Shown here: positions 3,006 through 9,761 of the stretch, one piece after another
Layout of the letters: the number at the start of each line of letters is the position of its first letter
Position numbering within the stretch: position 1 is the first letter of the stretch
Translations under genes and position numbers: made by a program
Virus record (IMG/VR): IMGVR_UViG_2703718815_000011
Coordinates: 1 to 11,313 of that record
DNA length: 11,313 nucleotides
Source of the DNA: a virus
Lineage: Duplodnaviria > Heunggongvirae > Uroviricota > Caudoviricetes
Direction: 5' to 3' (one strand)
The notes under the pieces: model-generated
The model's database searches: none
What the model was told of the DNA's origin: nothing
Seen by the model: only the letters and a program-made list of their open reading frames with translations

Positions 3006-3467
3006 ATGAAAAAAACACGCGAAGTGATTGCAACTCCAGAAGCGAGCAAGAATTTAAAAGCCGCATGGAATGCAAGAAAAAAAGAGCTGAAGCTGACTCA
3101 AGAGCTGGCGGCTGAGTTGTTGGGATTCGAATCTCAAGGCACCGTTAGCCAGTATCTGAACGGCAAGATACCGATAAATACCGACGCTGCGCTAAAATTT
3201 GCGGCTCTGTTAAAGGTAAAACCAGAGGACATTCGAGAAGACCTTAAAGACTTAATGAATTATGTAAGATCATCAGATACTTATGATGATAGCTTTTCAG
3301 GCAAAGGATGGAGGCTGGTCAATGAAGAACAGGCAGAGTTACTTAACCTCTTCGAGATTCTACCTGCGTCAGAAAAAGCCAAACTCCTTAACCAGCTACG
3401 TGGACTAAACAAGCTCTACGAGGAAGCCTTCGAGAACATGCTGGCACTAAAGAAACGCAACCAGTAG
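3006..3467 (+). CDS. racR: CI-type prophage repressor, HTH_XRE N-terminal domain, no recognisable S24 (LexA-like) autopeptidase domain; RacR-like, 153 aa
   Basis: HTH LTQELAAELLGFESQGTVSQYLNGKIPINTDAALKFAALLKVKPEDI. No SD upstream of the ATG at 3006 and a -10-like element ends ~6 nt upstream, suggesting a leaderless mRNA as for lambda cI from PRM. Followed by a strong terminator. Confidence 0.75.
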   Translation: MKKTREVIATPEASKNLKAAWNARKKELKLTQELAAELLGFESQGTVSQYLNGKIPINTDAALKFAALLKVKPEDIREDLKDLMNYVRSSDTYDDSFSGKGWRLVNEEQAELLNLFEILPASEKAKLLNQLRGLNKLYEEAFENMLALKKRNQ

Positions 3468-3621: not shown

Positions 3622-3650
3622 TTGACTTGAAATATCCGTATTACTAATAT
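3622..3650 (+). promoter_or_regulatory. pL-like sigma70 promoter: TTGACT (3622-3627), 17-nt spacer, TAATAT (3645-3650)
   Basis: Near-consensus hexamers with optimal spacing, 68 nt upstream of the first gene of the + strand early operon (3718). The -10 lies inside a 15-bp motif that is repeated 88 bp upstream. Confidence 0.55.
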
Positions 3651-3717: not shown

Positions 3718-4023
3718 ATGACATTTACTCAGAGTATTGACCCGCCAGAAACGAATAATGCTGTATTTTGCCTGGCGTATGAATTGTCTGTACAAGCATC
3801 AACAATGGCAAAGGAGAGAGAGCTAACTCCAAGGCAGGCACGTCTCGCACTGGAACTCGCCAGCCGGGTATCAGTAGCAAAAAAAATCGCACCAGCCGTA
3901 ATGGCACGAAACCTGGCTAATGCAATTACAGATGTCAGGTCACTACAACCATACAATTATCATGTCGAAGAGGCATTAGAAAAATTAATCGCTGCTGCGG
4001 ACGCCATCATTGATGAACTGTAA
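3718..4023 (+). CDS. Hypothetical small Ala-rich helical protein, 101 aa; first gene of the early-left operon (the position N occupies in lambda, but no arginine-rich motif)
   Basis: Strong SD AAGGGGAGAG 6-8 nt upstream of the ATG; protein-like composition. Function unknown. Confidence 0.7.
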   Translation: MTFTQSIDPPETNNAVFCLAYELSVQASTMAKERELTPRQARLALELASRVSVAKKIAPAVMARNLANAITDVRSLQPYNYHVEEALEKLIAAADAIIDEL

Positions 4024-4250: not shown

Positions 4251-4279
4251 AGTATACCACCGAGCCTGAAGTGGTAAAA
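4251..4279 (-). promoter_or_regulatory. Candidate extended -10 promoter for the 3985-4218 gene (minus-strand TGgTATACT; weak -35 TTTTAC)
   Basis: Minus-strand sequence ...TTTTAC-N17-TATACT with TG at -15/-14, read from the reverse complement of 4251-4279. Weak -35, so low confidence. Confidence 0.3.
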
Positions 4280-4448
4280 AGACAGGCATACAACACGAAG
4301 GCGCATTTCCGGTATCCATAAAGAGTCGGTCTTGTCTGTGAAATTTAAATGGTGGGAGTGCGCCTCCGGTTGTGAATAACAACACTGCTGTGTGTAGTCT
4401 TGGCGGCATCAGTTTTTTCTTGAAGTACGACTGATGTCTGCCCTTTTT

Positions 4449-4594
4449 AAAGTGAATTTTGTGATGCGGTGAATGCGGCTAAGCGCACGCGGCACAGTTA
4501 AAAGCATCAGTGTTATGGGTGGATTATCCGGCGTTAATTGTTAACTGGTTAACGTCACCTGGAGGCACCAGGCACCGCATCACAAAATTCACTT
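4449..4594. repeat. Perfect 22-bp inverted repeat AAGTGAATTTTGTGATGCGGTG (4449-4470) / CACCGCATCACAAAATTCACTT (4573-4594) flanking a 102-bp segment
   Basis: Exact reverse-complement match verified base by base. The right arm ends 22 nt before the ATG of the 4616 gene. The enclosed segment contains GTTAACTGGTTAAC (two palindromic GTTAAC hexamers). Confidence 0.9.
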
Positions 4595-4615
4595 AGTAAC
4601 CAAGAAGGGAATTAT

Positions 4616-4888
4616 ATGCAAGAGATAAGTTTTGAAGTAACAGCAAAAGATGTACAGGTTAAGCCCGATTACAATCAAAAATTATGTATTGAAGTCAATG
4701 GCGTGAAGTTATCAGACCTGATTGATTCAGTTGAAGATAACGACGCTATTATTGAAATGGTTGGAGCCGAAGAAATAGCAGAATACTTTTCAACAGAGGG
4801 GCGTCTTCATGAGCTTCTGGAAAAATTTTCATATCAGGATATCGCTACATTTCTGGAAATTAATGGTTATAAAGTTACCGAGGAATAA
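4616..4888 (+). CDS. Hypothetical highly acidic small protein, 90 aa (about 21 D/E versus 7 K/R)
   Basis: AAGAAGGGA SD 6 nt upstream of the ATG. Charge counted directly from the translation. No family recognised. Confidence 0.7.
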   Translation: MQEISFEVTAKDVQVKPDYNQKLCIEVNGVKLSDLIDSVEDNDAIIEMVGAEEIAEYFSTEGRLHELLEKFSYQDIATFLEINGYKVTEE

Positions 4889-4906: not shown

Positions 4907-5116
4907 ATGGAACGTAATCATCTAACAGCTATCAGTGCCGCACAGAGTAAATTCGCCATCGCTGTATTTTTACAGGATGAAGAAATGTTTGAGCAGGCCA
5001 TTATTCAGTTTGCAATTGCGACCGGGAGTAAAATAAATGAACACTTTGTTCGCTCTTGTCATGACCGTTTTTCTGACATCAGGCGAAACTCAGGATGTTG
5101 TTACCGGAATTTATAA
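4907..5116 (+). CDS. Hypothetical 69-aa ORF; its 3' third overlaps the next gene out of frame
   Basis: AGGTGG SD 4 nt upstream. N-terminal 43 aa look protein-like, but the C-terminal part falls in the overlap with the 5037 gene and looks poor. It could be real, shorter, or spurious. Confidence 0.3.
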   Translation: MERNHLTAISAAQSKFAIAVFLQDEEMFEQAIIQFAIATGSKINEHFVRSCHDRFSDIRRNSGCCYRNL

Positions 5117-9385: not shown

Positions 9386-9580
9386 ATGAGATATGACAAT
9401 GTTAAACCATGTCCATTTTGTGGTTGTCCATCTGTTACGGTGAAAGCAATTTCAGGATATTACCGGGCAAAATGCAACGGATGCGAATCCCGAACCGGCT
9501 ATGGTGGAAGTGAAAAAGAAGCACTCGAACGATGGAATAAACGAACCACTGGAAATAATAATGGAGGTGTTCATGTATAA
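9386..9580 (+). CDS. ralR: RalR (restriction alleviation protein; reported DNase toxin of a type I toxin-antitoxin pair with the sRNA RalA), 64 aa
   Basis: MRYDNVKPCPFCGCPSVTVKAISGYYRAKCNGCESRTGYGGSEKEALERWNKRTTGNNNGGVHV, with Cys4 motif. Start chosen at 9386 to give the 64-aa product; in-frame ATGs also at 9374 and 9347. Confidence 0.85.
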   Translation: MRYDNVKPCPFCGCPSVTVKAISGYYRAKCNGCESRTGYGGSEKEALERWNKRTTGNNNGGVHV

Positions 9581-9761
9581 AATTACCGCCACTATTGAAA
9601 AGGAAGGTGGCACTCCTACTAACTGGACAAGGTACTCAAAAACAAAATTAACCAAATCAGAATGCGAAAAAATGCTCTCAGGTAAAAAAGAAGCTGGCGT
9701 TTCCAGAGAGCAGAAAGTAAAACTGATAAATTTTAATTGCGAGAAACTTCAGTCGTCGTGA
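9573..9761 (+). CDS. ydaC: YdaC-like small protein, 62 aa, function unknown
   Basis: MYKITATIEKEGGTPTNWTRYSKTKL... GGAGG SD 5 nt upstream of the ATG at 9573. Overlaps the ralR stop by 8 nt. Confidence 0.8.
   Translation: MYKITATIEKEGGTPTNWTRYSKTKLTKSECEKMLSGKKEAGVSREQKVKLINFNCEKLQSS

What the first reader, a model, noticed from the sequence alone, without database searches (positions are those of the whole stretch)
4449..4594. Perfect 22-bp inverted repeat bracketing a 102-bp segment just upstream of the acidic-protein gene
AAGTGAATTTTGTGATGCGGTG and its exact reverse complement lie 102 bp apart in a ~400-bp divergent intergenic region. In the pL-like transcript this would form a 22-bp perfect duplex ending 22 nt before the start codon at 4616. 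That is long enough to be an RNase III substrate (as at the lambda N leader and sib sites) or a translational/stability control element. Alternatives are paired binding sites for a DNA-looping regulator, a small invertible promoter cassette, or a MITE-like insertion. The enclosed DNA contains GTTAACTGGTTAAC, two self-palindromic hexamers.
Basis: seen in the sequence. Interest (0 to 1): 0.6.

Follow-up and report, generated by a model that had tools for sequence, protein, structure and literature searches.

The report
Prophage RNase III stem before kil-type genes
The perfect 22-bp inverted repeat is the closing helix of a conserved, folded RNA leader lying between a small regulatory RNA (KilS/DicF-type) and the next gene of a Rac/Qin-like prophage, and the matching helix in E. 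coli K-12 is a long-known RNase III cutting site, so this is a real but essentially ordinary member of a known kind.

Summary
The repeat is real: arms 4450-4471 and 4573-4594, 22/22 complementary, 101 nt apart, about 2e-7 expected by chance. The window is the early-left operon of a Rac/Qin-like prophage. The repeat lies on the sense strand, directly after a KilS/DicF-type sRNA terminator and 21 nt before the ORF at 4616.

The same element occurs in about 85% of complete E. coli genomes, upstream of kilR, dicB and other small genes. In other genera the arms differ in sequence but the helix stays 20-23 bp. Twelve of 21 pairs show compensatory changes, with many G·U and almost no A·C pairs, so selection acts on + strand RNA.

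The helix encloses a multi-hairpin domain related to the prophage sRNA family STnc100/PasD. It scores 41 bits, below Rfam's cutoff of 47.

In K-12 Qin, RNase III reportedly makes a 72-nt DicF. That 3' end maps to nucleotide 13 of the equivalent left arm.

No genome carries the interior inverted. There are no target-site duplications and no dispersed copies. The RNase III reading is therefore supported, and the DNA-level alternatives are rejected. Cleavage at this locus and its effect on the downstream gene remain untested.

The parts
4352..4448 (+). KilS-like sRNA gene (at the DicF position), with a terminator hairpin at 4402-4443 and a U-tract at 4444-4448
   Evidence: 90/98 identical to K-12 KilS (b4833). 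Rfam DicF hit at 4389-4443, 37.2 bits, below the gathering score of 48. The hairpin is seen in the fold.
4450..4471 (+). Left (5') arm of the 22-bp closing helix. The predicted RNase III cut is after about nt 13, i.e. 4462|4463.
   Evidence: The cut position is inferred from the 72-nt DicF of K-12 Qin mapped.
4472..4572 (+). Enclosed 101-nt multi-hairpin domain related to STnc100/PasD. It has a conserved 5' GAAUGCGGCUAAGCGCACGCGG hairpin (4475-4490), a variable middle hairpin, hairpin H4 (4530-4556, loop UUGUUAACUGG) and hairpin H5 (4558-4572, CCUGG-AGGCA-CCAGG).
   Evidence: Rfam STnc100 41.4 bits, E 2.5e-6. Folds. Covariation in H4 and H5.
4573..4594 (+). Right (3') arm of the closing helix. 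The predicted partner cut is at 4583|4584, leaving a 2-nt 3' overhang.
4595..4615 (+). Short unstructured leader with the Shine-Dalgarno sequence GAAGGG (4604-4609)
   Evidence: Read from the sequence. 37 of 40 long-helix copies have an ORF start within 40 nt of the helix.
4616..4888 (+). Downstream 90-aa acidic protein gene of unknown function (phrog_7311)

Best explanation
The inverted repeat is transcribed as part of the sense (+ strand) early-left transcript of a Rac/Qin-like prophage. That covers read-through from the KilS-like sRNA terminator and from the pL-like promoter near 3622-3650. In the RNA the two arms form a 22-bp helix that closes a conserved, roughly 100-nt multi-hairpin domain related to the STnc100/PasD prophage sRNAs. 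The helix is a double-strand cleavage site for host RNase III. By homology with K-12 Qin the cuts fall near 4462|4463 and 4583|4584. Cleavage would do three things. It gives the upstream sRNA an alternative, 19-nt-extended 3' end. It excises the roughly 121-nt domain with a 9-bp residual helix. And it leaves the downstream mRNA with a 5'-monophosphate and a 32-nt unstructured leader carrying the ribosome-binding site. This uncouples the fate of the sRNA from that of the downstream (usually kil-type) mRNA and sets how much of that mRNA is translated or degraded. Shown here: the RNA helix, its strand, its conservation and its context. Taken from the literature on the orthologue: RNase III cleavage. 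Inferred: the cut positions in this copy and the regulatory outcome. I lean towards dampening of read-through expression.
For: The helix and fold are clear: 22/22 bp, and z = -6.9 for 4445-4600. Covariation is strong. In 23 long-helix sequences from Escherichia, Citrobacter, Lelliottia, Scandinavium, Buttiauxella and viral contigs, 12 of 21 helix pairs have changes on both sides. 98.8% of cells are paired, against 33-43% for slid controls, and 0 of 500 shuffles reach the observed values. The strand is the + strand. Across 202 copies, positions 4-6 of the helix hold 53 G·U pairs and 0 A·C pairs, and model R1 scores the window at 169 bits on + versus 43 on -. The context is consistent. 33 of 40 long-helix copies follow a DicF/KilS-type terminator, 37 of 40 are followed within 40 nt by an ORF start, and 0 of 40 are followed by a terminator. 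Helix length is held at 20-23 bp with at least four unrelated arm sequences, matching the roughly 22-bp RNase III footprint (PMC6212723). [quoted passage not shown] That end maps to nt 13 of the 22-nt left arm in K-12 Qin, and any product of 60-81 nt would end within the arm. The dicF-dicB intergenic region is listed as an RNase III substrate (PMC2777011). Coverage at K-12 position 1649470, inside the element, is 26 reads in the rnc deletion mutant versus 0 and 0 in wild type (PMC5371410 Table S1). The two pairs between the predicted cuts are G-C and U-A, which fits the in-vivo rule of at least one G-C. The invariant helix pairs cluster at arm positions 10-12, next to the cuts.
Against: There are no transcript or cleavage data for this locus or strain. 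I could not read the primary source (Faubladier 1990). The 72-nt figure comes from two secondary sources and is a gel size, good to a few nt. The 2023 dicBF study stresses a different RNase III site upstream of DicF and did not detect transcripts extending into dicB. The Gordon 2017 signal rests on 26 reads and was merged within 400 bp. The nucleotide-resolution RNase III map (Altuvia 2018) has no supplement held. Seven long-helix copies lack an upstream sRNA terminator, so forming an sRNA 3' end cannot be the universal role. The direction of the effect on the downstream gene is unknown.
Confidence: 0.7

Rival explanations
1. The helix and enclosed domain act in cis without cleavage. Possible roles are a leader structure that insulates or occludes the ribosome-binding site 10 nt downstream, a binding platform for a protein such as Hfq or ProQ, or a ligand- or condition-sensing fold that tunes translation or stability of the downstream small gene.
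For: The helix base lies 9-10 nt from the Shine-Dalgarno sequence and 21 nt from the AUG. Long-helix copies are almost always directly upstream of an ORF. The enclosed domain is conserved across Enterobacterales, with invariant loops AGGCA and UUGUUAACUGG. In Qin-type copies the helix can extend weakly so that the terminator U-tract pairs with the dicB GAGGA.
Against: A perfect helix held at about 22 bp is more than occlusion needs and is exactly RNase III-sized. The orthologue is reported to be cleaved. In the window the Shine-Dalgarno sequence itself is not paired. No ligand or protein partner is known.
Confidence: 0.13
2. The main purpose of the helix is biogenesis of a trans-acting RNA. 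RNase III excises the enclosed STnc100/PasD-like domain (about 121 nt, with a 9-bp closing helix), which then acts like its terminator-bearing relatives as an Hfq-associated sRNA.
For: Short-helix relatives that carry a terminator pass Rfam's STnc100 threshold at 51-82 bits. PasD is a validated Hfq-dependent sRNA (PMC8550237; bioRxiv 10.64898/2026.05.13.724894). The predicted cut would leave a 9-bp helix, and 9 bp is the modal length of the helix in the short class.
Against: In K-12, coverage inside the domain is 0 reads in wild type versus 26 in the rnc mutant, which suggests the excised piece is unstable. The excised RNA would lack a terminator and U-tail, the usual Hfq handle. No RNA of this size from the dicF-dicB or kilS-kilR spacers turned up in the papers searched.
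Confidence: 0.12
3. The feature works at the DNA level, as a MITE-like insertion, an invertible promoter cassette, or paired operator sites for a looping regulator. Alternatively it is an RNA element of the minus-strand (sieB-like) transcript.
For: A perfect inverted repeat is strand-symmetric. A weak promoter-like match lies on the minus strand inside the element (4552-4523, 9/12). The element is multi-copy in genomes, with a median of 2 and up to 9 per E. coli genome.
Against: With the interior flipped, 0 of 4,746 matching records cover 80% or more of the query, and the best cover 65% in two pieces, which are the flanks. There are no target-site duplications, and the flanks are always a terminator or upstream motif on one side and a ribosome-binding site on the other. 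All copies listed lie in the same prophage operon context. The arms covary with G·U and not A·C, which is incompatible with protein-recognised DNA sites and with a minus-strand RNA. No invertase or transposase gene is adjacent.
Confidence: 0.03

Closest known systems
RNase III site 3' of DicF in the dicF-dicB spacer of the E. coli K-12 Qin prophage (Faubladier et al. 1990, as summarised in PMC5069750, PMC9438474 and PMC2777011)
   Same: It is the orthologous sequence, with about 90% identity over the element. It sits in the same position, between an sRNA terminator and the next ORF, and forms the same 21-22-bp helix around the same domain. The reported 72-nt DicF 3' end falls at nt 13 of the left arm.
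   Different: The window copy follows a KilS-type rather than a DicF-type sRNA. It precedes a 90-aa acidic protein gene rather than dicB. Its helix is fully Watson-Crick, whereas Qin has three G·U pairs and Rac has a bulged A plus G·U pairs. Its interior is 101 nt rather than 110 nt.
STnc100 (Rfam RF02076) and PasD prophage sRNAs
   Same: They share the core fold and motifs: a GGUGAAU...CACC closing helix, an H4 hairpin, and a CCNGG-AGGCA-CCNGG hairpin. A model built from the long-helix class finds the STnc100-type copies at 40-80 bits.
   Different: STnc100/PasD have a 6-9-bp closing helix and their own terminator, and lie mostly in late regions, for example downstream of stx2 or near Q. The window element has a 22-bp helix, no terminator and an ORF 21 nt downstream, and it scores below Rfam's gathering threshold.
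RNase III processing sites in phage early transcripts (lambda N leader and sib; T7 R0.3-R1.3)
   Same: All are host RNase III sites in a phage polycistronic early transcript, placed between functional units and close to a ribosome-binding site.
   Different: There is no sequence or structural homology. The T7 sites are hairpins with internal loops that give single cuts. Here a perfect helix closes a large multi-hairpin domain, so a double cut would excise that domain.
KilS sRNA of the Rac prophage (Bar et al. 2021, PMC8175672)
   Same: It is the immediate upstream neighbour. The K-12 KilS 3' end (1418405) lies 2 nt from the start of the Rac copy's left arm (1418403).
   Different: KilS is the sRNA and the element is the spacer after it. 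The KilS paper does not describe the downstream helix.

Membership tests
E. coli RNase III double-cleavage stem substrate | Intramolecular dsRNA of about two helical turns (about 20-22 bp) | tested here: met
   22 contiguous Watson-Crick pairs. Helix length is 20-23 bp in all lineages.
E. coli RNase III double-cleavage stem substrate | The helix forms in a transcribed RNA | tested here: met
   This is indirect evidence. Compensatory changes with G·U but not A·C pairs fix the + strand. The model scores 169 bits on + versus 43 on -. The element lies in the sense orientation of the operon. No RNA data exist for this strain.
E. coli RNase III double-cleavage stem substrate | rnc-dependent cleavage with 2-nt 3' overhangs at this site | not testable with these tools
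   Only orthologue data are available: the 72-nt DicF, 26 versus 0 reads in the rnc mutant versus wild type, and a listing as a substrate.
E. coli RNase III double-cleavage stem substrate | The two base pairs between the cuts are paired and include a G-C or C-G (Altuvia 2018) | tested here: inconclusive
   If the cuts are as in the orthologue, those pairs are G12-C and U13-A. G-C is present at that position in 21 of 23 sequences. The cut position is inferred to within about 2 nt.
Rfam STnc100 (RF02076) | Score at or above the gathering threshold of 47 bits | tested here: not met
   41.4 bits, E 2.5e-6. Other long-helix copies score 31.9-39.3 bits, while short-helix copies score 51-82 bits.
Rfam STnc100 (RF02076) | Stand-alone sRNA ending in its own intrinsic terminator | tested here: not met
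   No terminator follows the helix, and an ORF starts 21 nt downstream.
Rfam STnc100 (RF02076) | Shared core fold (closing helix, H4 hairpin, CCNGG-AGGCA-CCNGG hairpin) | tested here: met
   The cmscan alignment spans the whole model. Model R1 links the two classes. There is covariation in the closing helix, H4 and H5.
MITE / dispersed repeat | Terminal inverted repeats of conserved sequence, target-site duplications, and dispersed insertion sites with empty sites | tested here: not met
   The arms covary instead of being conserved. There are no duplications. The copies listed by the searches lie in the same prophage operon context.
Invertible DNA switch | Both orientations found in populations or genomes, with a nearby recombinase | tested here: not met
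   0 of 4,746 records carry the flipped interior colinearly. No invertase gene is adjacent.

The most novel reading that the evidence does not exclude
The 22-bp helix is an excision signal. RNase III would cut one early-left transcript into three regulators: a 3'-extended KilS/DicF sRNA, a free STnc100/PasD-like structured RNA of about 120 nt with its own function (trans-acting regulator or protein sponge), and a 5'-monophosphate kil-type mRNA. The long-helix and terminator-bearing forms would then be two alternative ways of making the same widespread prophage RNA. That RNA also occurs in tandem arrays of 3-5 copies in several genera.
Probability: 0.18. Interest if true: 0.6.

Novelty: new member of a known kind. 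Interest (0 to 1): 0.35.

Why it matters
About 85% of complete E. coli genomes carry this leader in front of prophage cell-division inhibitors and other small early genes (kilR, dicB, kil). Recognising it as an RNase III-sized, strongly covarying RNA helix around an STnc100-like domain gives a concrete handle on how read-through from the DicF/KilS terminators into toxic genes is controlled. It also links two literatures that have stayed separate: DicF/KilS processing and the STnc100/PasD prophage sRNAs. It identifies a branch of that RNA family that Rfam's threshold misses. And it explains a recurrent annotation artefact, the 'DicB, incomplete' pseudogenes called inside the RNA element. The mechanism itself, host RNase III processing of a phage early transcript, is classical.

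Tried and rejected
Several literature routes led nowhere.
- The Altuvia 2018 nucleotide-resolution RNase III map has no supplement held.
- Faubladier 1990 is not held.
- Searches for RNase III plus kilR and for 'dicF-dicB' found no direct description of this helix.

Some analyses failed or stayed inconclusive.
- My first upstream-terminator detector (short loops only) returned 0 hits for all classes. I replaced it with a fold-based test.
- MFE folding of long flanks gave spurious outer pairs, so I did not use it.
- A candidate tertiary pairing, CAGUUAA (4495-4501) with the H4 loop UUAACUG (4541-4547), gave a median best match of 7 versus 6.3 in shuffles. It was 69% paired versus 25-46% in slid controls. 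This is inconclusive and I do not claim it.

Four readings were rejected.
- Coding. The interior length varies between copies (101, 110, 111, 115-124 nt). The PGAP 'DicB' fragment at 4510-4590 matches only an open upstream extension of the dicB frame.
- Inversion.
- MITE or operator sites.
- A minus-strand RNA.

One observation proved irrelevant. The Gordon 2017 'kilR-sieB' site at 1418510 lies upstream of KilS, not in the element.

Full report
OBSERVATION. The inverted repeat exists as described, with small coordinate corrections. The arms are 4450-4471 (AAGTGAATTTTGTGATGCGGTG) and 4573-4594, 22 nt each and 100% complementary. They are 101 nt apart, and the helix ends 21 nt before the ATG at 4616. 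The 22-mer occurs only at these two places in the window even with 3 mismatches allowed, against 0.00 expected from shuffles. A perfect 22-nt inverted repeat with a short spacer is expected about 2e-7 times in 11.3 kb.

CONTEXT. The window is 100% identical to E. coli STEC005, and it is the immunity and early-left region of a Rac/Qin-like lambdoid prophage. On the + strand the order is:
- a repressor gene at 3006-3467;
- a sigma-70-like promoter at 3622-3650;
- a small ORF at 3718-4023;
- a KilS-like sRNA gene at 4352-4448, 90/98 identical to K-12 KilS, with a DicF-like terminator hairpin;
- the inverted-repeat element;
- a 90-aa acidic protein gene at 4616-4888 (phrog_7311, unknown function);
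- an unannotated lambda-Kil-like ORF, then DUF1482, ydaE, racC, recE, recT and ralR, with RalA antisense.

So the repeat lies in the sense transcript, in the spacer between an sRNA terminator and the next ORF. The same spacer sits between dicF and dicB in K-12 Qin, and between kilS and kilR in K-12 Rac.

DISTRIBUTION. A 171-nt query covering the element matches 4,642 of 5,426 complete E. coli genomes, with a median of 2 places per genome and a maximum of 9. In the records listed the features under the match are kilR, dicB, kil or nothing. I scanned public collections with a core motif, CACCNGGAGGCACCNGGCAC. It found the fold in prophage-type regions of many Enterobacterales genera, including Citrobacter, Enterobacter, Kosakonia, Pantoea, Rahnella, Buttiauxella and Salmonella.

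IT IS AN RNA HELIX ON THE + STRAND. In K-12 Qin the helix carries three substitutions, and all of them give G·U pairs on the + strand. The Rac copy has a bulged A plus further G·U pairs. Across 202 non-redundant copies, helix positions 4-6 show full compensatory switches: GC/AT/TA, TA/CG and GC/AT. Those positions hold 53 G·U pairs and no A·C pairs.

In 23 long-helix sequences the outer arms are unrelated in sequence. Examples are AAGTGAATTTTGTG..., CAACAGACCTTGCAATG..., AAGCAGGTTTTAAGG... and GAACTGACTTTGCAG.... Yet RNAalifold recovers 21 consecutive pairs. Twelve of those 21 pairs have changes on both sides. Overall 98.8% of cells are paired, against 33-43% when the partner columns are slid, and no shuffle out of 500 reaches the observed values. 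A covariance model built from this class scores the window at 169 bits on the + strand and 43 on the - strand. This excludes a DNA-recognition role for the arms, and it excludes a minus-strand RNA.

TWO CLASSES OF ONE FAMILY. The helix encloses a multi-hairpin domain, and that domain gives the window's only relevant Rfam hit: STnc100 (RF02076) at 41.4 bits, E 2.5e-6, below the gathering score of 47. Copies with a short closing helix score 51-82 bits and so pass the threshold. All long-helix copies I scored fall below it, at 31.9-41.4 bits.

Among 193 non-redundant copies the split is sharp.
- Of 137 short-helix copies (fewer than 12 pairs), 60 have an intrinsic terminator within 60 nt downstream and only 9 have an ORF start within 40 nt.
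- Of 40 long-helix copies (17 pairs or more), none has a terminator and 37 have an ORF start within 40 nt.

In addition, 33 of the 40 long-helix copies directly follow a DicF/KilS-type terminator. The short class corresponds to the described prophage sRNAs STnc100 and PasD, which are late-region, Hfq-associated RNAs. The window element therefore belongs to an uncatalogued leader or intercistronic branch of that family. Its downstream genes are diverse: DicB, KilR, a Rha/Ash regulator, tiny hydrophobic peptides and unknowns.

RNASE III. The helix is held at 20-23 bp in independent lineages. That is the length the RNase III dimer accommodates, about 22 bp (PMC6212723). For the K-12 Qin orthologue, two sources citing Faubladier et al. 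1990 agree. [quoted passage not shown] A third source lists the dicF-dicB intergenic region among RNase III substrates (PMC2777011).

I mapped this end onto the sequence. DicF is annotated at 1649382-1649434. A 72-nt RNA with the same 5' end stops at 1649453. That is nucleotide 13 of the 22-nt left arm (1649441-1649462). Any product of 60-81 nt would end inside the arm.

An independent but weak hint comes from Gordon et al. 2017 Table S1. Position 1649470, inside the element, has 26 reads in the rnc mutant and 0 and 0 in two wild-type replicates.

Transferred to the window, the cuts would be near 4462|4463 and 4583|4584. The two pairs between them, G-C and U-A, fit the in-vivo rule. The invariant helix pairs (arm positions 10-12) lie next to the cuts. 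The products would be a 3'-extended KilS, a 121-nt domain with a 9-bp residual helix, and an mRNA with a 32-nt unstructured leader. Nine base pairs is also the modal closing-helix length of the short class.

The RNase III site stressed in the 2023 dicBF study is a different one. It lies 137 nt upstream of DicF and gives the 5' end of a 190-nt species.

ALTERNATIVES.
- Inversion. A query with the interior flipped finds no colinear match in 4,746 records. The best matches cover only the flanks: 65% of the query in two pieces.
- MITE. There are no target-site duplications. The flanks are always functional neighbours, and the arms covary.
- Coding. The interior length varies between copies. The PGAP 'DicB, incomplete' call at 4510-4590 is explained by an open 45-codon upstream extension of the dicB frame running through the RNA element in Qin.
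- Cis-acting structure without cleavage, and excision of a functional RNA. Both remain possible additions or alternatives. The zero wild-type coverage inside the K-12 domain argues mildly against a stable excised RNA.

VERDICT. The element is an orthologue of a known RNase III-processed spacer, here in a perfect Watson-Crick version. It follows KilS rather than DicF and precedes an acidic-protein gene rather than dicB. The modestly new points are the family-level picture, the strong covariation, and the link to STnc100/PasD. Cleavage at this locus and its regulatory sign remain to be shown.

Noticed in passing
window 4907-5116 (+): A 69-aa ORF carries a lambda Kil domain (PF06301, 32.1 bits, above the gathering score of 27.6; phrog_3924). 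It is not annotated in the RefSeq record of the source genome, where it falls in a gap between two annotated CDS.
   Followed up: partly
window 4510-4590 (+): RefSeq/PGAP annotates a 'cell division inhibition protein DicB, incomplete' pseudogene inside the RNA element. Its translation (VLWVDYPALIVNWLTSPGGTRHRITKF) matches only the open upstream extension of the dicB reading frame in K-12 Qin, so it is probably an annotation artefact.
   Followed up: yes
window 4352-4448 (+): This is an orthologue of the K-12 Rac sRNA KilS (90/98 identical), with a DicF-like terminator hairpin. Rfam scores it as DicF at only 37 bits, below the threshold of 48.
   Followed up: partly
window ~4258-4290; also L139, L097, L005: The conserved motif ACCACCGAGCCTGAAGTGGTAAAAAGACAGGC, which contains a small hairpin, directly precedes the STnc100-like element in other phages that have no KilS/DicF module in between. 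In L005 the order is reversed: the element comes first, followed by a DicF/KilS-like seed and terminator. The modules look shuffled.
   Followed up: no
L202, L221, L173, L198, L220, L206, L158, L174: These loci carry tandem arrays of 3-5 short-helix STnc100-like copies, spaced about 250-570 nt apart. They come from Pantoea, Superficieibacter, Citrobacter braakii and Enterobacter hormaechei, and from a Pantoea plasmid.
   Followed up: no
window 4495-4501 and 4541-4547: The conserved CAGUUAA is complementary to UUAACUG in the 11-nt loop of hairpin H4, so a pseudoknot or an alternative fold is possible. Family-wide, 69% of cells are paired versus 25-46% for slid controls, and some partner switches are seen (CCAGTC/GACTGG, ATCAGCG/TGCTGGT). 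The result is inconclusive.
   Followed up: partly
window 9579-9757 (-): This is a full-length RalA antitoxin sRNA (Rfam 210 bits) antisense to ralR, confirming the Rac-type backbone.
   Followed up: no
K-12 coordinate 1418510 (L245 ~1510, - strand): Gordon 2017 lists an rnc-dependent coverage difference (41 reads versus 0 and 0) 8 nt upstream of the KilS 5' end. It hints at a second RNase III-sensitive structure upstream of KilS, analogous to the site upstream of DicF.
   Followed up: no
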